Source: Actinomycetota bacterium (GTDB lineage: Bacteria > Actinomycetota > Actinomycetes > S36-B12). From it: a stretch of DNA of 58,123 bases. A program made the position numbers and the translations under genes. Shown piece after piece: positions 22,388 to 36,857 of the stretch. The stretch is taken from the NCBI GenBank assembly GCA_046091195.1, contig JBJTBD010000065.1, forward strand, positions 1 to 58,123, read 5' to 3'. The notes beneath the pieces are model-generated. The model did not search any database and was not told where the DNA came from. It saw nothing but the letters and a program-made list of their open reading frames with translations. How positions within the stretch are numbered: the stretch's first letter is position 1; each line of letters begins with the position of its first letter.

Positions 22388-22392
22388 GACGA

Positions 22393-24039: not shown

Positions 24040-24056
24040 CGTCCTACTCCTTCTCG

Positions 24057-25445
24057 TTATGCGTGGGAGTGCAGGGGCTTGCCGGCGAGTGCGAGGTGTG
24101 CCTCGCCCATCGCCTCATTCTGTGTGGGGTGCGCATGGATCAGGGTGGCGACATCTTCTGGATATGCCTCCCAATTCACGATCAGTTGTGCTTCACCGAT
24201 CTGCTCGCCGACGCGGGAGCCGACCATGTGGACGCCGATGACGGGTCCGTCCTTGAGTTGCACCAGCTTGATGAACCCCGCCGTGTCGAGGATCTGGCTC
24301 TTGCCGTTGCCGCCCAGGTTGTATTCGTAGGTCGTCACGGCATCCGCGCCGTGCGCGGCCTTCGCCTCAGCCTCCGTCAGGCCGACGCTGGCGACCTCGG
24401 GTTCGCAGTAGGTGACGCGGGGGATGTTCACGTCGGAGATCACCACCGGGTTCAGGCCAGCGATGTCCTCGGCGACGAAGATCCCGTGCTGGAATCCGCG
24501 GTGCGCGAGTTGGAGTCCGGGGGTGATGTCACCGACCGCGTAGATGCCGGGAATGTTCGTGCGCAGGCGATCATCGACGAGCACCCAACCACGCTCCATC
24601 GCGATGCCCTGCTCGTCATATCCCATGCCGGCCGTGTTCGGTCCGCGTCCCACGGCCACGAGCAGGATCTCGGCGGTCACGGTCTTCCCGTCTTCGAGGG
24701 TGACGGTCACACCCGTCGCGTCCTGGGTTGCGGAGGCGAACCTGGTGCCGAGGATGAAGGTGATCCCACGCTTGCGATAGGCGCGCTCGAGGGCCTTCGA
24801 GCAGGCTTCATCCTCGTTGGGCACCAGGTGCGGAAGACCTTCGACGATCGTGACCTCGGAGCCGAAGGAGCGCCAGACACTGGCGAATTCGACACCGATC
24901 ACCCCGCCTCCGAGGACGATCACGCTCGTGGGGACGTAGTCGAGATTGAGGGCCTGATCGGAGGTCATGATGCGGCCACCGATCTCGAGGCCCGGGAGGG
25001 TGCGTGCGTAGGAACCCGTTGCGAGGACGACGTTCGTTCCGGTGTACTTCTCGCCGTTCACCTCGACGGTGTTCGGGCCGACGAGGCGTCCTTCGCCCTC
25101 GACCAACGTGATGTCGCGGCTCTTGACCAGACCCTGAAGTCCCTTATAGAGACGCGCCACGACCCCGTCGCGGTACTCGTTCACCTTGGGCATGTCGATG
25201 CCGTCGAGGTTGGCCTTCACGCCGAAGTGCTCGGACTCGCGGGCGCTATCCGCCACCTCGGCTGCGTGGAGGAGGGCTTTCGTGGGGATGCATCCGCGGT
25301 GCAGGCAGGTGCCACCAAGCTTGTCCCGGTCGATCAGGATCACACTCTTGCCCAACTCGGCTGCGCGCAGCGCACACGCGTAGCCCCCGCTGCCTCCTCC
25401 GAGAATAACCAGATCTGCCTGCGGCACGCGACTGCTCCTCACCAA
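24057..25445 (-). CDS. lpdA: dihydrolipoyl dehydrogenase
   Basis: [29 protein letters not shown] redox disulfide, and C-terminal HAHPTQNEA His-Glu dyad. Confidence 0.9.
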
Positions 25446-25505
25446 GTGATTGGGACGCCTTTATCCTTCCACCGTCCCACGGGTGAGTTCACTCGGGCCG
25501 GTTCT

Positions 25506-26987
25506 TCACCTGCTGTTCGCCAACCGGCGGGCCATTTCGACGAAGGTGCGCACCGCGGCACCCGTCCCGCCCTTGGGGGTGTAGCCGTAGGCAGCCTTGT
25601 CATTGAACGCCGGGCCGGCAATGTCCAGATGTACCCAGGGCTGCCCCGGGGGGATGAACTCCTTCAGGAACACCCCGGCCGAGAGCATCCCGCCCATGCG
25701 GTCGCCGATGTTGGCGATGTCGGCGGTTGCGGAGTCAAGGGAGCTGCGCAGATCCTCCGGCAGGGGCATCGGCCACATCGCCTCGCCCGCTGCATCGGCG
25801 GCCTCGCACACCTGAGTGCGTGCATCGTCCTTGTTCGACATGACTCCCGCGGTGCGGCTTCCGAGGGCGATTCGCTGCGCACCGGTCAACGTGGCCGCGT
25901 CGATGATGAGATCGGGCTTCTCCTCGACGGCCATGCCCAGCGCGTCAGCGAGGATCAGGCGCCCCTCGGCGTCGGTGTTGAGCACTTCGACCGTGGTGCC
26001 GTCGTAGGTGCTGAAGACGTCACCGGGTCGCTGCGCCGTTCCGCTGGGCATGTTCTCGGCGCTCGGCACCCAGCCTGTGACGCGCACGGGGAGTCGCAAT
26101 GCTGCAATGGCCTGCATCGCCGCGATCACGGCAGCTGCACCCGCCATATCGCCCTTCATCTCGTCCATATTGGCCGCGGGCTTGATCGAGATACCGCCGG
26201 TGTCGAATGTGATGCCCTTACCTACGATCGCCAAATGCTTCGACGCACCCTTCGGTGCGTACTCGAGCTTCACTAGGCGCGGTGGGTTCGCCGAACCCTG
26301 GCCCACGGCCAGGATTCCGCCGCAGCCATCTCGCTGCAACGCCTTCTCGTCCCAGATGGTGACCTTCACCGGTGCAGCCGCCACCGCGGCCTTCGCCTCG
26401 CGGGCGAGTGTCGCGGGCGGCAGCGCGTTCGGTGGAGTGTTGACCAGGTCACGGGCGAGGTCGACCGCGTCACCGATAACCGCGACTTCATGGACGAGAG
26501 ACCGCTGCTCGGCGCTGACACGGTCCGCACAGAGGAAGGTGATCGTCTGCACCGGAGAGTTCTCCTTCTTCGGTGCGGACTTGAAGGCGGTGAAAGCGTA
26601 GTTCGCGAGCCGCGCTCCGAGTACGGCTGCTGCCCAGTTCTCTTGAGGGAGGACGATCGATATCCGACGCTTTCCCGTCAACGCTCGTACGGCATTCCCG
26701 TACGAACGTCGGACGGATTCCGCATCCGCAGATTTCGCTGCGTCACCGAGCCCGACCGTCACAACGAGTCCGGCCTTGATCCCGGAGACGTCTGCGAGCT
26801 TCGTGACCTCACCTGCGGTGCCGGTCGCCCCCAAGGCGCGCGCGGCATTCACGATCTTCTCGGTCTGGGATCTGGTCAGGTCGGGCGTGGCCACGGTGAT
26901 GGTTGATCCCTTGGGCTGGATGGGGAGGACCAGTGCTTCCCCGGCGGCCTGGGCGGGAGCGGTTGCGGTGATCGTGAGAGTCGTCAT
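25506..26987 (-). CDS. pepA: leucyl aminopeptidase (M17)
   Basis: VGKGITFDTGGISIKP and NTDAEGRLILADAL motifs. 493 aa. Confidence 0.9.
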   Translation of the reverse strand: MTTLTITATAPAQAAGEALVLPIQPKGSTITVATPDLTRSQTEKIVNAARALGATGTAGEVTKLADVSGIKAGLVVTVGLGDAAKSADAESVRRSYGNAVRALTGKRRISIVLPQENWAAAVLGARLANYAFTAFKSAPKKENSPVQTITFLCADRVSAEQRSLVHEVAVIGDAVDLARDLVNTPPNALPPATLAREAKAAVAAAPVKVTIWDEKALQRDGCGGILAVGQGSANPPRLVKLEYAPKGASKHLAIVGKGITFDTGGISIKPAANMDEMKGDMAGAAAVIAAMQAIAALRLPVRVTGWVPSAENMPSGTAQRPGDVFSTYDGTTVEVLNTDAEGRLILADALGMAVEEKPDLIIDAATLTGAQRIALGSRTAGVMSNKDDARTQVCEAADAAGEAMWPMPLPEDLRSSLDSATADIANIGDRMGGMLSAGVFLKEFIPPGQPWVHLDIAGPAFNDKAAYGYTPKGGTGAAVRTFVEMARRLANSR

Positions 26988-27050
26988 GTTCGCAGGTTAG
27001 TCAGGATCACAGCGTTCGCGCCCGGGTGGTCACGTCGCTAGCGTTCGTTC

Positions 27051-28139
27051 ATGACCGCACTTCAGCGCACTCCGCTCTTCGACCGGCACGTCCGTCTCGG
27101 CGCCAAGCTGGCCGACTTCGGCGGCTGGGAGATGCCCATCGAGTATTCGGGCACCGTGGGGGAGCACGCCGCCGTTCGTGAAGCGGTCGGGATCTTCGAT
27201 GTATCCCACATGGGGAAGGTGCGGATCACCGGTCCGGGCGCGCTCGATTTCGTCAACGGCATCGTCGCCAACGACGTACATCGCATCGCGGATGGTCAGG
27301 CCCAGTACTCGATGGTGTGCACCGAGGACGGCGGCATCATCGACGACCTCATCGTGTACCGGTTCGGCCCCGAGGACATCTTCATCGTTCCCAACGCGTC
27401 CAATGCCGCAGCGGTGGTCGCCGTCTTCCGGGCTGCCGTGCCACCCCAGATCGACATTGCCGATCAGCACCATGAACGGGGAATCATCGCGGTCCAGGGA
27501 CCTCGCTCTGCCGATGTATTGGAGGCGCTGGGTCTACCGACGGATCACGACTACATGGCGATGGTCGAGGCACCGTGGCGCGACTATCGGGTGCTCGTGT
27601 GTCGCACGGGGTACACCGGTGAGCGCGGTTTCGAACTGATCGCTCCGGCCGCGTCCCTGGGTGAGCTGTGGGATGCGCTGATGATGGAGGTCACCGCCGC
27701 GGGAGGTACGCCCGCAGGGCTCGGTGCGCGCGACACCTTGCGCACCGAGATGGGCTATCCGCTGCATGGCCAGGACATCTCGACCTCGACCACTCCGGTC
27801 GCGGCGGGGCTCGGCTGGGCCGTGGGCTGGGACAAGCCCGCATTTCACGGGCGCGATGCGCTGCTCGCGGTGAAGGCGGCCGGACCGGACCGGCGACTCC
27901 GCGGCGTGATGGTCGTGGGTCGCGGGATCCCGCGGCCGCACATGCCCGTTCACCGCGCGGGTGCGCAAGTGGGGGAGACCACGAGCGGAACCTTCTCTCC
28001 GACCCTGCGTCAGGGAATCGCGTTGGCCTACCTCCCCGTGGACATTGCGGTCGGTGACTCGGTGCAGGTGAATGTGCGTGGCACCCTGGTCGACGCCGAA
28101 GTTGTCACCCCGCCGTTCGTGCCCTCGCACGTGCGTTAG
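27051..28139 (+). CDS. gcvT: glycine cleavage system aminomethyltransferase
   Basis: TPLFDRHVRLGAKLADFGGWEMPIEY, GIFDVSHMGKVRITG and RTGYTGERGFELI. Confidence 0.9.
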   Translation: MTALQRTPLFDRHVRLGAKLADFGGWEMPIEYSGTVGEHAAVREAVGIFDVSHMGKVRITGPGALDFVNGIVANDVHRIADGQAQYSMVCTEDGGIIDDLIVYRFGPEDIFIVPNASNAAAVVAVFRAAVPPQIDIADQHHERGIIAVQGPRSADVLEALGLPTDHDYMAMVEAPWRDYRVLVCRTGYTGERGFELIAPAASLGELWDALMMEVTAAGGTPAGLGARDTLRTEMGYPLHGQDISTSTTPVAAGLGWAVGWDKPAFHGRDALLAVKAAGPDRRLRGVMVVGRGIPRPHMPVHRAGAQVGETTSGTFSPTLRQGIALAYLPVDIAVGDSVQVNVRGTLVDAEVVTPPFVPSHVR

Positions 28140-28807
28140 TCGATACCGATCAGCGCGGCGTGCACACGCGCGCCAATCTCCGAATGGGTGGGGAGTCCTA
28201 GGTCGAGTCCTGGATCGACTCCGATGCGCATCACCGCGGCCCGGATCGCGGGATCGTTGCTCGTCCCGGCCCCGTGCCACCACGTCTTCGCGCGGAACGA
28301 GAGCCGATCCGCGGCGACGGCGGCCGCCCACACGGTCAAGCCTTCGAGCAGAACGGGCGTTCGGCGTGCGCTCGCGGTCACGAGTGCACCGGCCACGTCC
28401 ATCGCATGCGGAACTGTGTCGAGGAGCGCCTCGATGTCACCCTGGTGGGAGCGAAGATCGGCCACCTGGTCCCGGACCAGGATCACCTGTTCCATCCACG
28501 CGGCATCTGTCATCCCGGTGGGTTGGGGAACGACTGCATTCGCCTCTGCGCCCGTCAGCAGAGCAATCAGTGCACGCTCATCCACGGCGTCGTCGGTGGC
28601 CGCTCGAATGACGACAAGGCGCGCACCGGAATCGATGGCCGCGTCGATTCCCGCCGGTTCCACTTCCACGAAGCTGGACGTAGTGACGTCGCGCTCCCGC
28701 AACCAGTGGTGATACGCGCTCAGAGTTGCGCCCTGCGATTCCTCTGCATCACCGGGGCGAGAAGGGGCGGACGTGATGACCGATGCACGGTCGGCGAGTG
28801 CGCCCAT
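28136..28807 (-). CDS. truncated, motif-degenerate CobT-like protein (nicotinate-nucleotide--DMB phosphoribosyltransferase family)
   Basis: 223 aa. From memory, collinear with the C-terminal two-thirds of CobT (ALIALLTG..., RRTPVLLEGLTVWAAAVAA, GVDPGLDLGL...). The GIGNTT-type and LGEGTGA-type motifs read AATDD and THSEIGA. Lies 9 nt downstream of the S-component gene, as the last gene of the riboswitch operon. Confidence 0.5.
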   Translation of the reverse strand: MGALADRASVITSAPSRPGDAEESQGATLSAYHHWLRERDVTTSSFVEVEPAGIDAAIDSGARLVVIRAATDDAVDERALIALLTGAEANAVVPQPTGMTDAAWMEQVILVRDQVADLRSHQGDIEALLDTVPHAMDVAGALVTASARRTPVLLEGLTVWAAAVAADRLSFRAKTWWHGAGTSNDPAIRAAVMRIGVDPGLDLGLPTHSEIGARVHAALIGID

Positions 28808-28816
28808 TTCTCGAGC

Positions 28817-29611
28817 CTACGAGGCTCCCACCATCGGCTGCGGCTGGAACCGGGCCCGGCGTGCGGCGCGGTGGAGGGCATCGAGGATCGAGCGACCTGC
28901 GATCAGAATGAGGATCGCGGCGAGCGCGGCACGGGGGATGTCGAAGCCCAAGGAGGTGGTGATCGTGAAGCGCCACCAGTGTTCGAGATTCACCACGACC
29001 CCGGCACCGGGCGCGAACGCCAGTTGCGGCGGCAGGGATGTGGCGAATGGCCAGAACCACAGGTTCATCACGAAGCCATAGGCGATGCAGGCACCCACCG
29101 CATAACCGGCGAGCAGCAGGACCTCGCGCCGTCCGGCCATCCGCGGAAGGAGGCCCGCACCCACTCCGACCCAGCCGGCCGCGATCATCTGGAACGGAAG
29201 CCACGGCCCCACACCGCCGGTGATGATCGCCGATGCCGCGAGTGACACCGTGCCGAGCACGAATCCGAAAGCGGGGCCCATGGCGCGGGCGCCGAGGATC
29301 AGGATGACCCAGATCGGCTCGATACCGGCGAGGCCGGCGCCCAATGGTCGTAGTGCGGTGATGATGGCGGCCAGAATCCCGAGCAGCGCGATCGCCTTTG
29401 CATCGATGCGCGCGTGGATGAACTCCGAGAACGTGATCGCCAGAACCAACACCATCACGAGTGCAAAGAGCCAGGGAACGATGGACGACTGCGATGCCAA
29501 CTGCGTTCCGGGTGTGATGAGAAACGGCCACAGGAACGCGAGCAGGCCAACTGCACTTGACACCACGAGGGCGACGGTCGTTGACGGGCGGAGCGCGATC
29601 GCGTGACTCAT
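28817..29611 (-). CDS. ECF transporter S (substrate-capture) component, unassigned specificity
   Basis: 264 aa, about 6-7 TM helices. The ATG overlaps the ATPase stop (ATGA). No recognisable CbrT, BioY, RibU or similar signature. Confidence 0.7.
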   Translation of the reverse strand: MSHAIALRPSTTVALVVSSAVGLLAFLWPFLITPGTQLASQSSIVPWLFALVMVLVLAITFSEFIHARIDAKAIALLGILAAIITALRPLGAGLAGIEPIWVILILGARAMGPAFGFVLGTVSLAASAIITGGVGPWLPFQMIAAGWVGVGAGLLPRMAGRREVLLLAGYAVGACIAYGFVMNLWFWPFATSLPPQLAFAPGAGVVVNLEHWWRFTITTSLGFDIPRAALAAILILIAGRSILDALHRAARRARFQPQPMVGAS

Positions 29612-31218
29612 GCGCGCCGCTCCTCAGCGAGGGCGGATTCGACGTCGGCAACCGTGAGCCAGATTCCGGGGGACATGATCTTGGTGACCTGCGGGGCGAA
29701 CATCGGTGAGGACGTCACCACCTCGGATGTCGGTCCGTGGGCGACCACCTCGCCGTCGGCGAGGATCAGCACGGTGTCGGCGACCTCGGCCACCAATTCG
29801 ACATCGTGAGTGGCGATCACGACGGCATGACCCTGCGATGCGAGATCTCGGAGGTGCTCGGCGAGGCGAGACTTCGTGGGGTAGTCGAGGCCCCGCGTCG
29901 GTTCGTCGAGTACGACGAGCGGTGGTCGCGACGCGAGGATGATCGCCAGAACCAGCGATACCTGTTGCCCGGCGGACAGGTCACGTGGGTGGGTGTCATC
30001 ACGGACATCCGGTGCGAGGAGTGCGAGGAGGGCGCGCGTCGTGCCCGCGAGGACCCGCGCATCGCGATCGGAGAGCCTGCACTCGTCTGCAACGGTGGCG
30101 CACTCGAGGAGATCGGTCGGGTTCTGGGGGACGAGTCCCACATGGCGTACGAGCTCGGGACCCTCGAGTCGCGAGGGATCGACCCCATCGACCTGCACGT
30201 GCCCGGTGGTCGGCGTGATCATGCCCGCGAGCAGGGAAAGCAGGGTGGACTTGCCGGCACCGTTGCGTCCCATCACGGCGAGCACCTGCCCACCGCGCAC
30301 CTCGATGTCCACACCGCGCAGTGCGGGGGTGCGGCCATAGGCGGCATCGACGCTGTCAATGGTTGCTCGTCGCACGCCGACGGGAGGGTGTGGCCGCTGC
30401 GAGGAGCGTCCTACGAGGATCCTGCGGAGTGGTTCGGCTTCACGTCGTGCATCGCGAATCGTGAGGGGGAGGGGGTTCCAGCCCGCAAGCCTGCCGAGTT
30501 CGACGACGGGCGGCGCGATGGGAGCGTCGGTCATCATTGCCTGCGGGATTCCCTCGCGCACACCACCCGGTTCGAGGACCAGGACGCGATCGACGTATTG
30601 CACGACCCGTTCAAGTCGGTGTTCCGCGATCACGGCGGTGACTCCGAGATCGTGGACGATGCGCTGGAGCGAGGCGAGAACCTCCTCTGCTGCTCCCGGG
30701 TCCAGTGCGGATGTCGGTTCGTCGAGTATCAGGACTCTCGGATGCGATGCCATCGCTGCACCGATCGCCACGCGCTGGCGTTGACCCCCGCTCAGGGCGA
30801 CCAGGGGCCTCGCCCTCACTTCGTCGAGTCCGAGCAGATCGAGGGTTTCCTCGACACGTCGACGCATCGTCGTGGGAGCGACGCCGAGACTCTCCATCGC
30901 GTAGGCAAGCTCCTCCTCGACGGTGTCCGTGACGAAGCCGCTCATTGGATCCTGCGGCACGTAGCCGACGACATCGGCGAGTTCCCGCGGGGGAGTGATG
31001 CGTATCGAGCGGCCGTGGACACGCACATCGCCGAGAAATTCACCGCCGGTGAAGTGTGGAACGAGCCCGTTGATGGCCCGCAGCAGGGTGGACTTGCCGC
31101 TTCCCGTTGTTCCTACGACAAGCGTGAACTCACCCTCCGGGATGCGCAGGCATACATCGCGCAGGATCCAGGGGGTGCCGGCGTCGTACCGGAAGGAGAC
31201 GTCATCGAACTCGATCAC
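29608..31218 (-). CDS. ECF transporter fused double ATPase (EcfA1-EcfA2)
   Basis: Two ABC cassettes: GTTGSGKST/LSGGQRQRV/LILDEPT/EHR and GRNGAGKST/LSAGQQVSL/VVLDEPT/THD. GTG start VIEFDDVSFRY (cac 31216-31218) overlaps the EcfT stop (GTGA). The track ORF running to 31407 is an over-extension. Confidence 0.85.
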   Translation of the reverse strand: MIEFDDVSFRYDAGTPWILRDVCLRIPEGEFTLVVGTTGSGKSTLLRAINGLVPHFTGGEFLGDVRVHGRSIRITPPRELADVVGYVPQDPMSGFVTDTVEEELAYAMESLGVAPTTMRRRVEETLDLLGLDEVRARPLVALSGGQRQRVAIGAAMASHPRVLILDEPTSALDPGAAEEVLASLQRIVHDLGVTAVIAEHRLERVVQYVDRVLVLEPGGVREGIPQAMMTDAPIAPPVVELGRLAGWNPLPLTIRDARREAEPLRRILVGRSSQRPHPPVGVRRATIDSVDAAYGRTPALRGVDIEVRGGQVLAVMGRNGAGKSTLLSLLAGMITPTTGHVQVDGVDPSRLEGPELVRHVGLVPQNPTDLLECATVADECRLSDRDARVLAGTTRALLALLAPDVRDDTHPRDLSAGQQVSLVLAIILASRPPLVVLDEPTRGLDYPTKSRLAEHLRDLASQGHAVVIATHDVELVAEVADTVLILADGEVVAHGPTSEVVTSSPMFAPQVTKIMSPGIWLTVADVESALAEERRA

Positions 31219-32327
31219 GGCGTCTCCTCGGGTCGTGAAGTGCTGAGGTAGCCCGCACATCCAGCGCTCACCAGCGCAAGAAGTGCGCCGATCGGGAGCG
31301 ACGGCCAGGTCGGAGGGTCCGTGGGCGGGTTCATGGCGAGGGGGCTCAGGGTTGTGGTGAGGACGCTGATCACCAGTGTCAGGGCTCCCGAGGCGACGAC
31401 GAGCCACTCCGATCGACCCCAGGGATCAGGCCGATACACCGTGCGATTGCGGTGCCGGGATGCGAGCACGAGCGCACCTGCGGCCGCGACGAGTGCCCCA
31501 GCGGCGAGACTCCAGGAGAGCACTGCGGGTACCTGTGCGGCCATGAGGCCAAAGAGCCCGATCGCACCCGCGATCACTGCGACTCCGATGAGCGCCACGA
31601 CGAAGCGACGTTCACGTGCGTGCGCCGTTCCCATGCGCCCGTATCCGCGGGCATCCATGGCGGCCGCGAGTTCGATCGACTGGTCGAGGGCGCTGTGCAG
31701 CACGGGGAGTGCCGCGCCTGCGAATGCGCGTGGTCCTCGAGTCGCGCGTCCGCGGAGACGCCGGGAAGTCCGTACACGTTCGATGTCGTGAACCAACTGC
31801 GGCGCGAACGTGAGGGCGATGACGATGCTGACACCGAATTCGTAGAGCGCACTGGGAAGAGACTTCAGGAGTCGACGCGGTGAGGCAAGGGCATTCGCCG
31901 CGCCGATGCACAGGATGATCGCGGCGAGCCGAAGTCCGTCGTAGAAGCCGGCGAGGATCACTTCGAGCACGACCGGACCACCGAGCCGAAGTCCTGCGGC
32001 CCACACAGGCAGTGTGATGCTCGGCAGGGTTGCGATCACCGTGTCGCCCCAGGCGCCACCCAGGAGCATCTGCGCGAGGACGCGGATCACCACGATCACC
32101 GCGGCGATGCGCAGGAAGAACGTGAACGTGTGTCCCCCGGGGCGTTCGCGCCGGTGGACCACGAGTGCGAGGACGCAGATCAACAGGATGAGGAACAGCG
32201 GGTTCGTGGTGCGGCTCGCGGTTACGGCGAGGAGGAGACTCCACAGCCACCATGCACCCGGGTGCGTCCAGCGCCCGAGACGTGCGGTGCCGACGATCGT
32301 GTCGGGTGCGATGGCGGTGGCGGTCAT
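31215..32327 (-). CDS. ecfT: energy-coupling factor transporter transmembrane component EcfT (CbiQ family)
   Basis: 370 aa multi-TM protein with cytoplasmic coupling-helix Arg motifs (RVRTSRRLRG, AAAMDARGYG). The ATG overlaps the upstream gene stop (ATGA). Confidence 0.8.
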   Translation of the reverse strand: MTATAIAPDTIVGTARLGRWTHPGAWWLWSLLLAVTASRTTNPLFLILLICVLALVVHRRERPGGHTFTFFLRIAAVIVVIRVLAQMLLGGAWGDTVIATLPSITLPVWAAGLRLGGPVVLEVILAGFYDGLRLAAIILCIGAANALASPRRLLKSLPSALYEFGVSIVIALTFAPQLVHDIERVRTSRRLRGRATRGPRAFAGAALPVLHSALDQSIELAAAMDARGYGRMGTAHARERRFVVALIGVAVIAGAIGLFGLMAAQVPAVLSWSLAAGALVAAAGALVLASRHRNRTVYRPDPWGRSEWLVVASGALTLVISVLTTTLSPLAMNPPTDPPTWPSLPIGALLALVSAGCAGYLSTSRPEETP

Positions 32328-32956
32328 CGTCGCCGCCAGACGTCAAGGCCGACGATCGCGGCGACCGCGAGCACGCCGAGGGTCCACCACGGTGTTCCGG
32401 ACGACTCCTCCGATGGAGCCTGGGCGACATCCGACGCCACGGGTGCGGGTTCCGGGGCGTCGATGATCGGCGCGCATTCCTCCCGCGGGAATCCATCGAT
32501 GCCGCAGAGGAAGCCGCCGTCGGCACGGACATCCGCGACAGCGGACAGGCTCTGGAACCCGTTGGCACCGGCGTCGACCACGGCGCATTCAGTCCTCGGT
32601 GCCGGTGGCGTCTCACCCGCGGGCGCGATGTCGGCCGTGCCGAAGTCGAGTACCACGGCGACGGCCTTCTGACCCTGGTTCGATGCGACGGTGCCACAGG
32701 CCTGCTGCCAGACCCGGCGTGGATCCAGGGTCGGTGGCCCACCTGCATCGGTCATGCCTTCCGACACCACGAAGGTCCACCCCTCGACATCCCCGTCCTG
32801 AGGGATCGTGGTTCCCGCTCCCTGGGCCGCGTACGACCAGGCACCGTCCGAGCCGTTCCAATACGACCAGTAGCGCGTCAGGCCCTCGGCGTGTGCGGTG
32901 GGTGCGCCGATGAAAGCCGCTGTCACGGCACAACCCACCAGCACACGACGGATCAC
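32324..32956 (-). CDS. secreted, C-terminally membrane-anchored protein (SCO2322-family-like)
   Basis: GTG start (cac 32954-32956) overlaps the upstream stop (GTGA). Signal peptide VIRRVLVGCAVTAAFIGAPTAHA, a Cys-containing domain (RYWSYWNGSDGAWSYAAQGAGTTIPQDGDVEGWTF...), a Pro/Glu/Ser linker, and a C-terminal TM segment plus RRR stop-transfer (WWTLGVLAVAAIVGLDVWRRR). Confidence 0.6.
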   Translation of the reverse strand: MIRRVLVGCAVTAAFIGAPTAHAEGLTRYWSYWNGSDGAWSYAAQGAGTTIPQDGDVEGWTFVVSEGMTDAGGPPTLDPRRVWQQACGTVASNQGQKAVAVVLDFGTADIAPAGETPPAPRTECAVVDAGANGFQSLSAVADVRADGGFLCGIDGFPREECAPIIDAPEPAPVASDVAQAPSEESSGTPWWTLGVLAVAAIVGLDVWRRR

Positions 32957-33972
32957 CGCATCGACCCCGTCAGCGCTGACGCGAGATTGACGCCACCGAA
33001 ATTGCGCGGCGATGTTCCCGTTGCTTCCGCCACCATGAGGAGGAGGCCGATCGCACCGGGATTGGCCACGCCACCCTTCAGCGCATAGTCGCGCGCTGCC
33101 GAAGTCAGTGTGCGCGTACCGGTTCGCACAGCGGCGCGGCCGACGCCGAGCTCGCTGAGTCCGATCACGGCGCGGGCGGTGGAGCCGAGGTCCTGACCGG
33201 TTCCGAGGTCGGATGTGAGCGAGCCTTTCGCGGTGATCTGCGACGCGAGATACCTCGCCAGGCGCGTGGGCATGCCCTTCCCGCACGGCGGATTCCGCGT
33301 CAGAGTCCCGGCCCGATCAATGGGAAGACTCGCCGCGACGCCGGCGATCGTCTCGGATGACGCGAGGGAATTCGCTGCGCCACCCGCCTGGTACGGGAGG
33401 GCTCCTGCCGATGCGCTCCCGCAGGGGAACTGCAGGGAGGCAAGGAAACGGACCGCATTGGGGACACGCGCACTGCGATCCTGCGGACTCACGGTGCGGA
33501 GTGCCGCGATCGCGAGGGCGGTGGAGTTGGCATCGGACTCGCCACCGGCGTAGTACGGCCAGCCCCAGTCGTCGTTCTGCGCATTGTTGAGCCACACGAC
33601 CGCCTTACGTGCCGCCGACTGCTCTCCGACGAGGGCGAGTGCTGTGGCTGCGGCGGCCGTGGAATTGACGTCCGGTCCGCTGAATGCGGTGGGATTCGAC
33701 GCGGTGCACGGCACCGTGGTGTTCGTGCGGTACGCCTCGAAGCTGCCGTCGGCACATTGCTGTCCCAGGAGCCAGGTGATCGCAGAAGGCGCGGGCGGAA
33801 GATCCACCGATGTCAGTCCCATGATGGCCAGGGACTGACGGAGGACGCCGTCGTAGACGGGGTCCGTTGATCCGTACAAGCCGCGATCCGCCGCATGGGC
33901 TGGTGCAGCGATGGTGATGGCTACGGCGGATGCCACACAGAGTGACAGTGCGCTGCGCAGAATGCGTGTCAT
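32953..33972 (-). CDS. secreted prenyltransferase/squalene-oxidase repeat (alpha/alpha-toroid) protein
   Basis: 339 aa. Signal peptide MTRILRSALSLCVASAVAITIAAPAHA. Repeated QW-like motifs (LLGQQCADGSFEA, LNNAQNDDWGWPYY, LASLQFPCGSASAGALPY). GAGAGGAA Shine-Dalgarno sequence upstream. First gene after the riboswitch. Confidence 0.75.
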   Translation of the reverse strand: MTRILRSALSLCVASAVAITIAAPAHAADRGLYGSTDPVYDGVLRQSLAIMGLTSVDLPPAPSAITWLLGQQCADGSFEAYRTNTTVPCTASNPTAFSGPDVNSTAAAATALALVGEQSAARKAVVWLNNAQNDDWGWPYYAGGESDANSTALAIAALRTVSPQDRSARVPNAVRFLASLQFPCGSASAGALPYQAGGAANSLASSETIAGVAASLPIDRAGTLTRNPPCGKGMPTRLARYLASQITAKGSLTSDLGTGQDLGSTARAVIGLSELGVGRAAVRTGTRTLTSAARDYALKGGVANPGAIGLLLMVAEATGTSPRNFGGVNLASALTGSMR

Positions 33973-34016
33973 GTGTTCCTCTCACTAAGCGGTCGGACAC
34001 GCTCTCGAGAGGGCCG

Positions 34017-34045
34017 AAAAAAGAGTCCCTTCCAATGGAAGGGAC
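34017..34045 (-). terminator. intrinsic terminator of the riboswitch expression platform
   Basis: GUCCCUUCC-AUU-GGAAGGGAC followed by UCUUUUUU. An upstream GGGACG (34070-34065) can pair with CGUCCC (34046-34041) as an antiterminator. Confidence 0.75.
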
Positions 34046-34190
34046 GTTCGGTTGCCCGAGCGCTCGTCCCGTTACCTCGACGGATGGAGCCGCTCGTACC
34101 TGCCAGGTGCTCCGACTCGCCGAAAGGCACACGGTTGCGGGACAGCGCCGGAATCTCACCGGACTTCCCCTGGACTTCAGGTACGTGGAT
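34017..34190 (-). promoter_or_regulatory. cobalamin (B12) riboswitch: aptamer 34095-34185 plus antiterminator/terminator expression platform
   Basis: Minus-strand RNA: P1 CGUACCUG...CAGGUACG. Core GGGGAAGUCCGGUGAGAUUCCGGCGCUGUCCCGCAACCGUG. B12-box-like GAGUCGGAGCACCUGGC. Followed by the terminator listed as its own feature. Confidence 0.85.
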
Positions 34191-34224
34191 GTAGTTGTGT
34201 TCGGACCCTACTGCATCGTGGGCG

Positions 34225-34434
34225 TCATTCGGGCGGATGCAGACTCATCGGTCCGTAGACCTCACGTCCATCCTCCAGAAGGGACACCTGATCGACGCCC
34301 TCGCCCAGGAGATCGCGCCAAAATTCGCCGATCCACGACTCGGCATCTGCTTGGGAGGGGAAGGAGCCTCCAGGGTTGAGGGTCACGTTCACCGGCGTGT
34401 CGTCGAAGCGCAGGTACGACCAGGTCCAGGACAT
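34225..34434 (-). CDS. small hypothetical protein
   Basis: 69 aa (MSWTWSYLRFDDTPVNVTLNPGGSFPSQADAESWIGEFWRDLLGEGVDQVSLLEDGREVYGPMSLHPPE). GC3-rich. Begins 7 nt after the AKR stop. No family recognised. Confidence 0.5.
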   Translation of the reverse strand: MSWTWSYLRFDDTPVNVTLNPGGSFPSQADAESWIGEFWRDLLGEGVDQVSLLEDGREVYGPMSLHPPE

Positions 34435-34441
34435 GTCGCGC

Positions 34442-35440
34442 CTAGGGCCGGGTCGCTGGTGACGCAGTGCGCGTCGGGTCGGTGGTGATCAAGTCGCCCA
34501 GGATGTAGTCGATGGCACTGCGCACATCCTCGGGAAGAGTGATGCCCGACGCGGCCGCGTTCTCGGCGATCTGCTCGGGCCGAGACGCGCCCACGATCGC
34601 CGATGCGACATTGGAATTGCCCAGGACCCAGGCGATCGCCATCTGGGCCGGGGTCAGGCGCATGTCCGCGGCGATCGGGATGAGCTTCTGAACCGCATGA
34701 AGGATGTCGTCGTCCATGAATCGCTGGATGTAGGTCTGTCCTTCCCCGACCGACGCGCGGGAGTCACTCGGGGGTGGGGATCCGGGTACGTACTTACCGG
34801 TCAAAACCCCTTGGGCGATCGGAGACCACACGATCTGGCTGACCCCGAGTTCCTCGCACGTCGGGACAACCTCTCCTTCGATGACCCGCCACAGCATTGA
34901 GTACTGCGGTTGATTGCTGATGATTCTGGTGAGGCCCATCTCATCCGCGATGCGGATGGCTTCGCGGATTTCCTCGGCGCGCCATTCCGAGACGCCGATG
35001 TAGAGCACCTTCCCCTGGCGGACGAGATCGTCGAAGGCGCGCAGTGTCTCTTCAAGCGGAGTCTCATAATCGAAGCGGTGGGCTTGGTAGACGTCGATGT
35101 AGTCGGTGCGGAGACGCCGTAGCGACGCATGGCACGCCTCCATGATGTGCTTTCGGGACAGGCCCCGGTCGTTTACCCCTGGACCGACCGGCCAGTAGAT
35201 CTTGGTCAGGATCTCCAAGCCCTCGCGACGTTGACCATGGAGTGCATCGCCCATGAGTGCCTCAGCCTTGGTGGCGGCATAGACGTCAGCGGTGTCGAAG
35301 GTGGTGATACCCGCGTCGAGTGCTGCATGGATGGTTGCGGTTGCAGCGGCATCGTCGACCTGCGAGCCATGGGTAATCCAGTTGCCGAACGTGATCTCGC
35401 TGACCTTGAGGCCGCTGCGTCCGAGGTATCGGAACTCCAT
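34442..35440 (-). CDS. aldo/keto reductase
   Basis: MEFRYLGRSGLKVSEITFGNW, FDTADVYA, ILTKIYW and ISNQPQYSML. 332 aa. Confidence 0.9.
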   Translation of the reverse strand: MEFRYLGRSGLKVSEITFGNWITHGSQVDDAAATATIHAALDAGITTFDTADVYAATKAEALMGDALHGQRREGLEILTKIYWPVGPGVNDRGLSRKHIMEACHASLRRLRTDYIDVYQAHRFDYETPLEETLRAFDDLVRQGKVLYIGVSEWRAEEIREAIRIADEMGLTRIISNQPQYSMLWRVIEGEVVPTCEELGVSQIVWSPIAQGVLTGKYVPGSPPPSDSRASVGEGQTYIQRFMDDDILHAVQKLIPIAADMRLTPAQMAIAWVLGNSNVASAIVGASRPEQIAENAAASGITLPEDVRSAIDYILGDLITTDPTRTASPATRP

Positions 35441-36030
35441 CAGGACTTTGACTCCACCGGTGCGCCGCCGCGCTTGACGCGCGGGGGAGGCAGACGTAGC
35501 CGGCGGAATTGCAGGGTGCGGAGGAGTGCATAGAGGAGCAAACCCTTGCGTTCGACGGGGTCGGGGAACTGCTTCGCCGCCCGCGACCTCAGTGTGAGGA
35601 GCAGGATCGCAGTGTCGACGACGATGACGGCTACAAGGACGAAGAAGCCGAGTGACACCATCGACTGGATCTGGGGATTGGGGACGAATCCCAGAACGAG
35701 GACCGCGATGGCGATGAAGATGAAGAACTCGGCGACTGTGAAGCGCGAGTCGACGAAGTTGCGGGTGAATTGCTTCGCCGGGCCGCGGTCGCGTAGGGGC
35801 ATGAATCGCTCGTCACCGGCCAACATGCCTTGGCGGGCGCGTACTCGATCCTGCCTGTCGCGCTCGCGCGCTGCCTTCTTGCCTTCCTTCGTCCCACGCG
35901 GTGTGCGAAGCCCCTGCTTGCGGGCAGCCTCGGCCTCCTTGCGACTTGGAGTGGGTCGGCCTTTGGGGGCACGCGGATCCTCGGAGGGGGTTTCCGTCGG
36001 GGATTCCTCGGGTGAGCGGCGGCCGAACAT
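35440..36030 (-). CDS. DUF3043 domain-containing membrane protein
   Basis: Basic N-terminal region (KGRPTPSRKEAEAARK...), RDRGPAKQFTRNFVDSR, then two TM helices. Typical actinobacterial DUF3043 layout. Confidence 0.8.
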   Translation of the reverse strand: MFGRRSPEESPTETPSEDPRAPKGRPTPSRKEAEAARKQGLRTPRGTKEGKKAARERDRQDRVRARQGMLAGDERFMPLRDRGPAKQFTRNFVDSRFTVAEFFIFIAIAVLVLGFVPNPQIQSMVSLGFFVLVAVIVVDTAILLLTLRSRAAKQFPDPVERKGLLLYALLRTLQFRRLRLPPPRVKRGGAPVESKS

Positions 36031-36122
36031 GACCGGCAGCGTATCTCGGAGCGCGTGAGCGCTGCCTCCCGTACAGTGGAAGCGAAGCCCGCAGGGGGCA
36101 TGCAGAAACGAGAGATAGAGGA

Positions 36123-36857
36123 GTGGCCATGGGCCTCTGGCAGCGCTTCACGATGATCTTCAAGTCCAAGGCGAATCGCGCCCTTGATCGGGCGGAGGAT
36201 CCGCGGGAGACCCTCGACTACTCCTACGAGAAGCAGTTGGAGCTTCTCCAGAAGGTGCGCCGCGGAGTGGCCGACGTTGCCACCAGTCGCAAGCGCCTGG
36301 AACTCCAGATCCAGGGTCTAGGCCAGCAGGAGGCGAAGCTCGAGCAGCAGGCACGTGCCGCTCTCGGCCAGGGACGCGAGGACCTCGCGCGCGAAGCACT
36401 CACCCGGCGCAGTGGCCTCCACCAGCAGGTCGCCGATCTCCAGGCGCAGTTGGCTCAACTCGCCGAGCAGGAGGAGAAGCTCACGGTTGCGGCTCAGCAA
36501 TTGCAGACCAAGGTCGAGCAGTTCCGCACGCGCAAGGAAACCATCAAGGCCACCTACTCCGCCGCTGAGGCACAGACCAAGATCAACGAAGCGTTCACCG
36601 GGATCTCGAGTGAACTCGGCGATGTCGGCCTGGCGATCCAGCGTGCTGAAGACAAAACCGCGCAGATGCAGGCCCGGGCGGGGGCTATCGACGAGCTCAT
36701 GGCCTCGGGTGCTCTCGAAGATGTGTCCGGGATGGGCAAGGACTCCCTCACCATTGAACTGGAGCGGATGGCGAGCGAATCCGAGGTTGAAAACCAGTTG
36801 GCCGCGCTGAAGCGCGAAGTCGGTCCCGGCTCGTCGCCCCAGGAACTCGAGAAGTAG
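36123..36857 (+). CDS. pspA: PspA/IM30 family protein
   Basis: MGLWQRFTMIFKSKANRALDRAEDPRETLDYSYEKQLELLQKVRR followed by long coiled-coil heptads. 244 aa. Confidence 0.85.
   Translation: MAMGLWQRFTMIFKSKANRALDRAEDPRETLDYSYEKQLELLQKVRRGVADVATSRKRLELQIQGLGQQEAKLEQQARAALGQGREDLAREALTRRSGLHQQVADLQAQLAQLAEQEEKLTVAAQQLQTKVEQFRTRKETIKATYSAAEAQTKINEAFTGISSELGDVGLAIQRAEDKTAQMQARAGAIDELMASGALEDVSGMGKDSLTIELERMASESEVENQLAALKREVGPGSSPQELEK

What the first reader, a model, noticed from the sequence alone, without database searches (positions are those of the whole stretch)
28136..34190. B12-riboswitch-controlled six-gene operon: two extracytoplasmic proteins + dedicated ECF transporter + degenerate CobT-like protein (candidate uncharacterised corrinoid capture/uptake system)
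**What the sequence shows.** A cobalamin riboswitch with its terminator platform (34017-34190, minus strand) lies directly upstream of six co-directional genes. In order they are:
- a secreted alpha/alpha-toroid protein (32953-33972);
- a secreted, C-terminally anchored SCO2322-like protein (32324-32956);
- EcfT (31215-32327);
- a fused EcfA1A2 ATPase (29608-31218);
- an S component (28817-29611);
- a truncated CobT-like protein (28136-28807).

Four junctions are 4-nt GTGA/ATGA overlaps and the last is a 9-nt gap. The unit is therefore almost certainly one translationally coupled transcript.

**Why it is unusual.** The ECF B12 importer I know of (ECF-CbrT) has neither the two exported partner proteins nor a CobT-like gene. 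I recall the same gene neighbourhood in Streptomyces coelicolor (SCO2322-SCO2325), annotated only by family names and without an assigned function.

**Inference.** This is a B12/corrinoid (or lower-ligand) scavenging system in which cell-surface binding proteins feed a dedicated ECF module.
Basis: partly seen in the sequence, partly recalled or inferred. Interest (0 to 1): 0.88.

Follow-up and report, generated by a model that had tools for sequence, protein, structure and literature searches.

The report
B12-riboswitch ECF corrinoid uptake operon
A vitamin-B12-sensing RNA switch controls a six-gene operon that most likely captures B12-type cofactors at the cell surface and pumps them in; the kind of system was predicted before, but this widespread actinobacterial/Chloroflexota version has never been tested.

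Summary
A cobalamin-clan riboswitch (best model AdoCbl-II RF01689, 51.3 bits, window 34097-34183, minus strand) with an intrinsic terminator precedes six co-directional genes. Four junctions are 4-nt overlaps and one is a 9-nt gap.

The genes are: a secreted alpha/alpha-toroid protein, a membrane-anchored SCO2322-family protein, EcfT, a fused EcfAA', an S component and a short CobT-like protein.

The corrinoid-uptake reading is well supported:
- In 17 fetched related loci (about a dozen distinct) from Actinomycetota and Chloroflexota that include the upstream region, a cobalamin riboswitch precedes the toroid/SCO2322/ECF set; 16 pass Rfam's threshold, one misses by 0.5 bit.
- The S-component profile hits only CbrT (PDB 6FNP) among solved structures.
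- Relatives extend the operon with cobU-cobT-cobS or PduO/cobS/cobU.

The novelty claim is overstated. Exported toroid plus small beta proteins next to CbiQ/CbiO genes were predicted to scavenge B12 in 2007. A Lactobacillus sakei homologue was studied, and acI genomes were noted to carry a riboswitch-fronted ECF module.

New here:
- The SCO2322 domain is a circular permutant of the Chloroflexota beta domain, and its predicted fold has no PDB match.
- The CobT-like protein lacks all catalytic motifs yet is under purifying selection.

Verdict: new variant of a known kind, experimentally untested.

The parts
34205..34210 (-). Candidate -10 promoter hexamer TAGGGT
   Evidence: Sequence read. The block GTAGGGTCCGAACACAACT upstream of the aptamer is conserved in four close leaders and partly in L004. 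The sigma-70 consensus scan found nothing. The promoter assignment is inference only.
34097..34183 (-). Cobalamin riboswitch aptamer (AdoCbl-II class)
   Evidence: RF01689, 51.3 bits, E 1.4e-9, full model 1-81. Nearly invariant in the leaders of L002, L003 and L016, whose proteins are 57-94% identical.
34046..34096 (-). Expression platform with alternative pairings
   Evidence: On its own this stretch folds into a long hairpin, CGAGCGGCUCC...CGGGACGAGCGCUCG. It is conserved in L002, L003 and L016. Its role in switching is inferred.
34016..34045 (-). Intrinsic terminator (9-bp GC-rich stem, 3-nt loop, U tract)
   Evidence: Found by the terminator scan and read directly. Conserved in L002, L003 and L016.
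33977..33983 (-). Shine-Dalgarno-like GAGAGGA, 4 nt before the ATG of the first gene
   Evidence: Read directly from the sequence.
32953..33972 (-). Secreted alpha/alpha-toroid protein (339 aa, SCO2321-like, no C-terminal anchor)
   Evidence: Pfam Prenyltrans/SQHop hits and NCBIfam SCO2321_fam at 221 bits. AlphaFold model pLDDT 91.6. Foldseek matches terpene cyclases, farnesyltransferase beta subunit and complement TED at E down to 4e-9. N-terminal signal peptide and four invariant Cys. No DxDD or DDxxD motif in the sequence.
32324..32956 (-). SCO2322-family beta-rich protein (210 aa): signal peptide, about 140-aa Cys-containing domain, linker, C-terminal TM helix plus RRR
   Evidence: NF040672 147 bits; PF28005 on all homologues. 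Conserved YWSYW...DGDVEGW motif and three invariant plus one nearly invariant Cys. Model pLDDT 86. No PDB fold match. Circular permutant of the Chloroflexota domain.
31215..32327 (-). EcfT with a system-specific C-terminal extension
   Evidence: Pfam CbiQ covers residues 25-230. The extension carries the invariant R..RT.YRP.PW motif, shared across Actinomycetota and Chloroflexota.
29608..31218 (-). Fused EcfA-EcfA' ATPase (536 aa)
   Evidence: Two ABC_tran domains. ECF_ATPase_1 and ECF_ATPase_2 score 301 and 306 bits.
28817..29611 (-). S component, distant CbrT homologue (264 aa)
   Evidence: PF12822, 32.9 bits. An 8-sequence profile hits only 6FNP_A (CbrT) in the PDB, E 1.4e-7. 6FNP is confirmed as ECF-CbrT.
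28136..28807 (-). Short, catalytically dead CobT paralogue (223 aa)
   Evidence: Aligns only to the C-terminal half of CobT/ArsA. The N-terminal half and the GIGNTT and GEGxGA motifs are absent. dN/dS is 0.17-0.25. It always follows the S gene in its lineage.

Best explanation
This is a riboswitch-controlled, dedicated (group I) ECF importer for cobalamin-type corrinoids, with a two-protein cell-surface capture module.

Shown here:
- The leader carries an AdoCbl-II-class aptamer and a terminator.
- The six genes form one translationally coupled unit.
- The gene set and the riboswitch are co-conserved across Actinomycetota and Chloroflexota.

Inferred:
- When intracellular cobalamin is sufficient, the aptamer binds it and the terminator stops transcription.
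- When B12 is scarce, the operon is expressed.
- The secreted alpha/alpha-toroid protein and the membrane-anchored SCO2322-domain protein together bind a corrinoid outside the cell. This is analogous to the alpha and beta domains of transcobalamin sandwiching B12.
- They pass the corrinoid to the CbrT-like S component.
- EcfT, whose conserved C-terminal extension may dock the surface proteins, and the fused EcfAA' ATPase drive import.
- The last gene encodes a non-catalytic CobT paralogue. It is left over from, or accessory to, a cobU-cobT-cobS nucleotide-loop cluster that relatives still carry at this position. Its role is unknown; it may be a cytoplasmic corrinoid or lower-ligand-binding accessory.
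For: - Riboswitch and terminator are present.
- Gene junctions are overlapping.
- In 17 fetched related loci (about a dozen distinct after near-duplicates) found by homology to the SCO2322 or CobT-like protein alone and retaining upstream DNA, a cobalamin-clan riboswitch precedes the toroid gene. It is RF01689 in L001-L004, L016 and L022. It is RF00174 in L005-L007, L009-L014 and L023. L021 scores 31.0 bits against a gathering score of 31.5.
- Toroid, SCO2322-like, S, T and AA' genes are co-located in these loci.
- The S-component profile hits only CbrT among all PDB chains.
- Chloroflexota L006 continues with PduO adenosyltransferase, CobS, a TIM-barrel protein and CobU. L007 also has PduO.
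- Longivirga L021 and L022 continue with MBL-CobU, full-length CobT and CobS. In L021 these are overlap-coupled to the S gene.
- In Chloroflexota the toroid protein is fused to a paralogue of the small beta domain. This is a fusion argument that the two act together.
- Both exported proteins have signal peptides and conserved Cys.
- ECF-CbrT is experimentally shown to import cobalamin and cobinamide (PMC5997447).
- Literature precedent for the architecture exists.
Against: - No binding, transport or expression data exist for any member.
- The beta protein could not be shown to be a transcobalamin-type SLBB/DUF4430 domain. Pfam gives no hit. HMM searches against the PDB give no hit. Foldseek's best E-value is 1.5. 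The best planned pairwise hhalign reaches P 0.007 but only 5% probability.
- The toroid protein is closer to terpene cyclases than to transcobalamin.
- RNA folding places the terminator in the lowest-energy structure with or without the aptamer folded, so the direction of control is not demonstrated.
- The L. sakei homologue was reported to affect heme uptake.
- The B12 biosynthetic status of this organism is unknown.
Confidence: 0.7

Rival explanations
1. The ECF module imports corrinoids, but the toroid and SCO2322 proteins are not a capture device. They could serve another envelope role: storage or sequestration of B12 at the surface, protection from B12 analogues, or an unrelated cell-wall function that merely shares the operon.
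For: - There is no significant similarity of the beta protein to any known B12 binder.
- ECF S components usually bind substrate with high affinity without helpers, as CbrT does (PMC5997447).
- The toroid is nearest to terpene cyclases.
Against: - The pair shows strict co-conservation, fixed gene order and overlap coupling with the ECF genes in two phyla.
- The beta domain is fused to the toroid in Chloroflexota.
- The proteins are extracytoplasmic and lack cyclase motifs.
- The precedent is transcobalamin-like pairs next to CbiO/CbiQ.
Confidence: 0.14
2. The substrate is another metal or tetrapyrrole, namely cobalt/nickel (as for CbiMNQO) or heme (as claimed for L. sakei Lsa1836-1840), rather than a corrinoid.
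For: - B12 riboswitches also control cobalt transporters in B12 producers (PMC3766115).
- The T and A components hit 'cobalt transport' models.
- A L. sakei deletion of the related operon lowered heme uptake.
Against: - The S component is not CbiM/NikM-like, and there is no CbiN. Its only structural relative is CbrT.
- The neighbours in relatives are corrinoid salvage genes, not chelatase or early cob genes.
- Hemin does not compete with cobalamin in ECF-CbrT (PMC5997447).
- A B12 sensor regulating heme uptake has no rationale.
Confidence: 0.07
3. The system imports the lower ligand or its riboside (DMB or alpha-ribazole, as proposed for CblT), as the CobT-like gene might suggest.
For: - A CobT-family gene ends the operon.
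- cobT and cobS follow the S gene in L021 and L022.
- CblT/CblS-type salvage operons exist.
Against: - The CobT-like protein lacks every catalytic motif.
- It is absent from the Streptomyces and Chloroflexota versions of the operon.
- No cobS or cobU lies in the 58-kb window, so an imported base could not be used locally.
- The S component resembles CbrT.
- A large toroid cavity suits a corrinoid better than a benzimidazole (inference).
Confidence: 0.05

Closest known systems
ECF-CbrT cobalamin/cobinamide importer of Lactobacillus delbrueckii (PDB 6FNP; PMC5997447)
   Same: It is an ECF-type ABC importer. Its S component is the only solved structure hit by the window's S-component profile (E 1.4e-7). 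The cbrT family was originally predicted from B12-riboswitch regulons.
   Different: - CbrT is 182 aa and uses the shared, group II ECF module.
- Here the S component is 264 aa with a dedicated EcfT (with a C-terminal extension) and a fused EcfAA' in the same operon.
- Here there are also two exported proteins and a dead CobT paralogue.
Transcobalamin-like SLBB plus alpha/alpha-toroid extracellular proteins encoded with CbiO/CbiQ genes (Burroughs et al. 2007, PMC1796856), including L. sakei Lsa1836-1840 (bioRxiv 10.1101/864751)
   Same: - An exported toroid protein and an exported or anchored small beta protein, sometimes fused and sometimes with a second paralogue, lie in an operon with the ECF S, T and AA' genes.
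- These were predicted to scavenge B12 or its precursors.
   Different: - The small partner here is the SCO2322 family (PF28005). It is a circular permutant with extra disulfides, is not recognised by Pfam DUF4430, and has no PDB fold match.
- The taxa are Actinomycetota and Chloroflexota rather than Firmicutes.
- The L. sakei system was assigned to heme.
ECF module preceded by cobalamin/AdoCbl riboswitches in acI freshwater Actinobacteria (Kang et al. 2017, PMC5301498)
   Same: Freshwater actinobacteria, with a riboswitch-fronted ECF module proposed as the cobalamin transporter. The closest relatives of the window are lake MAGs.
   Different: That paper gives one sentence. It does not mention the exported proteins or the CobT-like gene. 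I did not show that its loci are identical to this one.
Mammalian transcobalamin / intrinsic factor / haptocorrin
   Same: An alpha/alpha toroid plus a small beta domain acts as an extracellular B12 clamp. This is the functional analogy, and the toroid fold class is shared (for the transcobalamin architecture).
   Different: - There the two parts are one chain; here they are two proteins.
- No significant sequence similarity was found for either part. The best result is P 0.007 at 5% probability for the beta domain after un-permuting it.
CobT / ArsAB NaMN:base phosphoribosyltransferases
   Same: The last gene aligns to the C-terminal half of CobT and ArsA. It sits where relatives have cobU-cobT-cobS.
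   Different: - It lacks about 130 N-terminal residues, the GIGNTT phosphate loop and the catalytic Glu of GEGxGA.
- NCBIfam scores are 58-70 bits against cut-offs above 300.
- It is a distinct short paralogue that coexists with true CobT in L022.

Membership tests
Cobalamin riboswitch clan CL00101 (AdoCbl-II, RF01689) | Covariance-model score at or above the curated gathering score | tested here: met
   51.3 bits against 36.5, E 1.4e-9, full-length model match.
Cobalamin riboswitch clan CL00101 (AdoCbl-II, RF01689) | Located in the 5' leader of same-strand genes, with an expression platform | tested here: met
   The aptamer ends 124 nt before the first ATG. A terminator at 34016-34045 lies between them. 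The leader is conserved in relatives.
Cobalamin riboswitch clan CL00101 (AdoCbl-II, RF01689) | Binds a cobalamin and changes expression | not testable with these tools
   Folding alone does not reveal the direction of control.
ECF transporter, group I (dedicated module) | EcfT (CbiQ family) transmembrane component | tested here: met
   PF02361, 26.0 bits against a cut-off of 25. Conserved across loci.
ECF transporter, group I (dedicated module) | Two EcfA-type ABC ATPase domains | tested here: met
   Two ABC_tran stretches. TIGR04520 and TIGR04521 score 301 and 306 bits, just under their single-domain equivalog cut-offs of 315 and 330. TIGR01166 cbiO scores 242 against 212.
ECF transporter, group I (dedicated module) | S component encoded in the same operon as T and A | tested here: met
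   PF12822, 32.9 against 30.7. The ATGA overlap links it to the ATPase gene.
CbrT family (cobalamin S component) | Detectable homology to CbrT | tested here: met
   Profile A3 against the PDB: 6FNP_A is the only significant hit, E 1.4e-7, covering profile positions 67-188 and CbrT residues 10-125. The relationship is distant: single-sequence phmmer finds nothing.
CbrT family (cobalamin S component) | Transports cobalamin/cobinamide | not testable with these tools
   Needs uptake or complementation assays.
Transcobalamin-like SLBB (DUF4430) + toroid surface B12 binders | Exported alpha/alpha-toroid protein encoded next to CbiQ/CbiO-type genes | tested here: met
   Signal peptide and toroid model. 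Operon position shown.
Transcobalamin-like SLBB (DUF4430) + toroid surface B12 binders | Partner domain is an SLBB/DUF4430 beta-grasp | tested here: inconclusive
   - No Pfam hit.
- No PDB HMM hit.
- Foldseek best E 1.5, but Foldseek depends on sequence order and the domain is permuted.
- hhalign of the un-permuted merged profile against the transcobalamin beta domain is collinear over 81 columns, with P 0.007 and probability 5%.
SCO2322 family (NF040672 / PF28005) | Score above the curated cut-off | tested here: met
   147.4 bits against 85. All homologues carry PF28005.
SCO2321 family membrane protein (NF053823, equivalog) | Score above the curated cut-off, full-length match | tested here: not met
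   221.5 bits against 300. The match covers profile positions 11-352 of 405, so the C-terminal (anchor) part is missing. It is related to the family but is not an equivalog.
CobT (NaMN:DMB phosphoribosyltransferase) | Full-length DBI_PRT domain above the NCBIfam cut-off | tested here: not met
   Only profile positions 171-310 of 329 match. Scores are 69.7 and 58.2 bits against cut-offs of 306 and 319.
CobT (NaMN:DMB phosphoribosyltransferase) | Active-site motifs (N-terminal base-binding half, GIGNTT loop, catalytic Glu in GEGxGA) | tested here: not met
   Alignment with the full-length CobTs of L021 and L022 shows all three are absent. GEGTGA reads HSEIGA.
Terpene cyclase / prenyltransferase enzymes | Catalytic DxDD or DDxxD motif and access to cytoplasmic isoprenoid substrates | tested here: not met
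   The 339-aa sequence has no DxDD or DDxxD and does have a cleavable signal peptide. Only the fold and the QW-like repeats are shared.

The most novel reading that the evidence does not exclude
The SCO2322-domain protein and the secreted toroid form a previously unrecognised two-chain bacterial counterpart of transcobalamin, a 'corrinophore'.
- Its beta half is a circularly permuted, disulfide-stabilised beta-grasp.
- It is tethered to the membrane and hands corrinoids to a CbrT-like ECF transporter through the extended EcfT.
- This would be the main B12 acquisition route of large monoderm clades: Streptomyces, freshwater Nanopelagicales-type Actinomycetota and Anaerolineae-type Chloroflexota.
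- The dead CobT paralogue would act as a cytoplasmic corrinoid-handling accessory.
Probability: 0.35. Interest if true: 0.75.

Novelty: new variant of a known kind. Interest (0 to 1): 0.55.

Why it matters
B12 is made by few microbes and needed by many. How monoderm bacteria capture it at picomolar environmental levels is poorly understood beyond BtuFCD, ECF-CbrT and mycobacterial BacA.

This operon family is large: at least 441 clusters at 50% identity at E<=1e-30, and 2174 at E<=1e-3. It occurs in Streptomyces, which is genetically tractable, in abundant freshwater Actinomycetota, and in Chloroflexota.

If the exported pair really is a B12 clamp, three things follow:
- It would give the first bacterial two-component analogue of transcobalamin feeding an ECF transporter.
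- It would explain the B12 auxotrophy strategies of streamlined lake bacteria.
- It would offer a new corrinoid-binding fold.

If the exported pair is not a clamp, the operon is simply another CbrT-type importer.

Tried and rejected
- Split-transcobalamin hypothesis. I tested the idea that the toroid and beta protein correspond to the two transcobalamin domains.
  - The toroid shows only the generic fold and is closest to terpene cyclases. hhalign against the human TC alpha domain gives nothing.
  - The beta protein has no Pfam DUF4430 hit, no PDB HMM hit and no Foldseek hit. hhalign against the TC beta domain gives E 0.19, improving to P 0.007 at 5% probability after un-permuting. I kept this only as an analogy.
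- The exhaustive profile search with A1 was meant to reach distant DUF4430 relatives. The 150 listed hits were all full-length family members, so it gave family size only.
- I tried to fetch DUF4430/CbrT-encoding plasmid CP013155 for a profile. It is not in the collection.
- Rodionov et al. 2009 (guessed id PMC2612444) is not held.
- Terpene cyclase or prenyltransferase enzyme reading for gene 1: rejected, because the protein is exported and has no catalytic motifs.
- P6 as a decaying pseudogene: rejected. The ORF is intact, dN/dS is about 0.2, and it coexists with full CobT in L022.
- I tried to deduce ON versus OFF logic from alternative pairings. The terminator appears in every low-energy fold, so this is unresolved.
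- The sigma-70 promoter scan found nothing.
- No cobU, cobS, full-length cobT, PduO or CbiR-like gene lies elsewhere in the window. The other window genes sampled are housekeeping genes.

Full report
**1. Observation**

A scan of all 58,123 bases against Rfam finds one RNA family. It is AdoCbl-II (RF01689, cobalamin clan) at 34097-34183 on the minus strand, with 51.3 bits and E 1.4e-9. A second clan member also passed its threshold but was suppressed as the lower-scoring overlap.

Downstream lies a 9-bp GC-rich hairpin followed by a U tract, at 34016-34045. A GAGAGGA Shine-Dalgarno-like sequence and the ATG at 33972 follow.

The junctions are GTGA, ATGA, GTGA and ATGA overlaps, plus one 9-nt gap.

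- a Prenyltrans/SQHop-repeat protein related to the SCO2321 family;
- an SCO2322-family protein;
- CbiQ/EcfT;
- a double ABC ATPase of ECF type;
- a PF12822 S component;
- a protein matching only the C-terminal 140 positions of the CobT (DBI_PRT) profile.

The only corrections are the riboswitch subclass and the extent of the Streptomyces neighbourhood, which runs from an SCO2321-like gene to the S component.

**2. Is the riboswitch-gene association real?**

Loci were fetched by homology to the SCO2322-like protein or the CobT-like protein alone, without reference to RNA. In 17 fetched loci (about a dozen distinct after near-duplicates such as L011/L012) that keep the upstream DNA, a cobalamin-clan riboswitch sits in front of the toroid gene:
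- RF01689 in L001-L004, L016 and L022;
- classic RF00174 in Chloroflexota L005-L007 and L009-L012, in L013, in Streptomyces L014 and in L023;
- in Longivirga L021, RF00174 at 31.0 bits against a gathering score of 31.5.

Two different aptamer classes front the same gene set in two phyla. That is strong evidence that B12 control is a selected property of the system.

In the closest lineage the whole leader is almost invariant while the proteins have diverged to 57-84% identity. This includes a TAGGGT box upstream of the aptamer and the terminator.

**3. The transporter**

T, AA' and S are encoded together, so this is a dedicated (group I) ECF system.

The S component has no single-sequence PDB hit. 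A profile of eight orthologues from both phyla hits exactly one solved protein. That protein is chain A of 6FNP, the CbrT subunit of the L. delbrueckii ECF-CbrT cobalamin/cobinamide importer, at E 1.4e-7. No other S-component structure is hit.

EcfT is about 130 residues longer than the CbiQ domain. The extension carries an invariant R..RT.YRP.PW motif shared by Actinomycetota and Chloroflexota. This is a system-specific feature that could contact the surface proteins, but that role is inference.

**4. The exported pair**

*Gene 1.* It has a signal peptide and four invariant cysteines. It folds with pLDDT 91.6 into an alpha/alpha toroid. Its nearest solved structures are drimenyl diphosphate synthase, squalene-hopene cyclase, farnesyltransferase beta subunit and complement TED domains. 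It has no DxDD or DDxxD motif and is exported, so an enzymatic terpene role is rejected.

*Gene 2.* It has the following parts:
- a signal peptide;
- a domain of about 140 residues with a YWSYW...DGDVEGW motif and conserved cysteines;
- a low-complexity linker;
- a C-terminal TM helix with a basic tail.

Its model is confident in the core (pLDDT 86 overall, above 94 in the core). It has no fold match in the PDB: Foldseek's best E-value is 1.5. It also has no HMM match.

*Chloroflexota versions.* The operon there encodes a toroid protein with an N-terminal beta domain, plus a second, anchored protein carrying a paralogous beta domain. Profile-profile comparison shows the actinobacterial SCO2322 domain is a circular permutant of this domain:
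- its N-terminal module equals the Chloroflexota C-terminal module (98.2%, E 5.6e-14);
- its C-terminal module equals the Chloroflexota N-terminal module (95.4%, E 1.8e-8);
- after un-permuting, the two families align collinearly.

The fusion of beta domain and toroid in one phylum, and their strict adjacency and overlap coupling in the other, argue that the two act together.

**5. Relation to transcobalamin**

Burroughs et al. 2007 described bacterial extracellular proteins that combine an alpha/alpha toroid with a transcobalamin-type beta-grasp (SLBB). These often have a second paralogous SLBB protein, lie in operons with CbiO/CbiQ genes, and were predicted to scavenge B12. [quoted passage not shown]

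The present system has the same architecture. I could not show that its beta domain is an SLBB:
- Pfam finds nothing.
- HMM searches against the PDB find nothing.
- hhalign against the human TC beta domain gave E 0.19. I recalled that sequence from memory, and it proved 100% identical to 5NO0/2BB5.
- With the merged un-permuted profile, a collinear 81-column alignment reached P 0.007 but only 5% probability.

Foldseek depends on sequence order and would miss a permutant. The relationship is therefore suggestive, not established. The analogy of function does not depend on it.

**6. The CobT-like gene**

The 223-aa product aligns to CobT/ArsA residues of about 183-327 only. Compared with the full-length CobTs of L021 and L022:
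- it lacks the N-terminal half;
- it lacks the GIGNTT loop;
- it lacks the catalytic Glu, with GEGTGA reading HSEIGA.

It is not a phosphoribosyltransferase. It is also not a pseudogene:
- The family is narrow, with 17 clusters, but intact.
- It always follows the S gene.
- dN/dS is 0.17-0.25, like the SCO2322 gene.
- In L022 a 248-aa member coexists with a full-length CobT. The window protein is closer to that short paralogue (123 bits) than to the L022 CobT (58 bits).

Synteny explains its position. In Longivirga (L021) and L022, the S gene is followed by MBL-CobU, CobT and CobS before the same convergent gcvT gene that abuts the window's operon. The window lineage has kept only the short paralogue. 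No cobU, cobS or full-length cobT is in the 58 kb.

The gene is absent from the Streptomyces and Chloroflexota operons. It is therefore a lineage-specific accessory and not part of the conserved core.

**7. Substrate**

Several observations point to corrinoids:
- The appended genes in relatives are all corrinoid salvage or nucleotide-loop functions. They are PduO adenosyltransferase, CobS, a TIM-barrel protein of the AP_endonuc_2 type and CobU in L006; PduO in L007; and CobU-CobT-CobS in L021 and L022.
- The S component resembles CbrT.
- The operon is under B12 sensing.

These disfavour cobalt, heme or free lower ligand, so the imported molecules are most likely cobinamide and/or complete cobamides. 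Where the salvage genes are gone, as in this window, complete cobamides are the likely useful substrate (inference).

**8. Regulation**

By analogy with other cobalamin riboswitches that control importers, ligand binding should favour the terminator and shut the operon off. RNA folding does not settle this. The terminator is in the minimum-energy structure both for the platform alone and for the unconstrained leader. Several GUCCC/GGGAC segments allow competing pairings. The direction of control and the ligand selectivity of this AdoCbl-II aptamer need experiments.

**9. Novelty and verdict**

No paper in the library mentions SCO2322-2325; SCO2321 appears once, in an unrelated peptide-delivery paper. 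No paper describes this system in Actinomycetota beyond one sentence on acI genomes. A 2025 review states that no ECF component is known in mycobacteria.

The kind of system was predicted in 2007 and studied once in Firmicutes. [quoted passage not shown]

I therefore rate this a new variant of a known kind. What is new is:
- the permuted SCO2322 beta domain, which has no solved homologue;
- the EcfT extension;
- the dead CobT paralogue;
- the breadth of the family.

Interest is moderate to good. The prediction is directly testable in Streptomyces and by E. coli complementation.

Noticed in passing
L021 13590-14999; L022 13293-14717: Fusion proteins of a metallo-beta-lactamase-fold domain (Lactamase_B_2) with CobU lie directly after the S gene and before full-length CobT and CobS. 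The role of the MBL half in nucleotide-loop assembly is unknown.
   Followed up: no
L006 13274-14113: A xylose-isomerase-like TIM-barrel (AP_endonuc_2) gene lies between CobS and CobU in the Chloroflexota operon. From memory, this is the superfamily of the cobamide-remodelling enzyme CbiR. It may indicate cobamide remodelling coupled to this uptake system.
   Followed up: no
window 31215-32327 (residues about 240-370 of EcfT): EcfT carries a C-terminal extension of about 130 aa with extra TM segments and an invariant R..RT.YRP.PW motif. The motif is conserved between Actinomycetota and Chloroflexota versions of the system.
   Followed up: partly
window 34225-34434 (-): A conserved small ORF (69 aa here; 64-73 aa in L016, L021, L022 and L023) sits between the aldo-keto reductase gene and the riboswitch. 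It has no Pfam hit on record. It ends only about 40 nt before the aptamer, so the operon's promoter must overlap its 3' end.
   Followed up: no
L005 7018-7686; window 32324-32400: The C-terminal anchor of the beta protein looks like a lineage-specific sorting signal. It is PEP-CTERM (28.6 bits) in one Chloroflexota locus. The window shows a weak GVDTG_CTERM hit. Source names for other homologues are LPXTG or MYXO-CTERM.
   Followed up: no
L002 (JBEIHR010000119.1): This contig is labelled as a Rubricoccaceae MAG but carries the operon at 76-94% protein identity to the window. It is probably a mis-binned actinobacterial contig.
   Followed up: no
window 34046-34150 (-): The leader contains GUCCC/GGGAC segments in the aptamer core, in the platform and in both terminator arms. 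It also has a conserved UCGG-GNAA-CCGA hairpin (GCAA in the window, GUAA in relatives). These allow at least three mutually exclusive pairings, and the switching logic is unresolved.
   Followed up: partly
L003 12114-12683: The CobT-like orthologue in L003 ends early (189 aa against 223). This hints at relaxed constraint or incipient loss in that lineage.
   Followed up: no
window 21494-28139 and 34442-36857: The operon is embedded in a conserved actinobacterial core region containing gcvT, pepA (M17), lpd, a 2-oxoacid dehydrogenase E2 gene, an aldo-keto reductase, DUF3043 and pspA. The same flanks are seen in L016, L021 and L022. From memory, mycobacterial cobT-cobS lie next to gcvT in the equivalent region.
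   Followed up: partly
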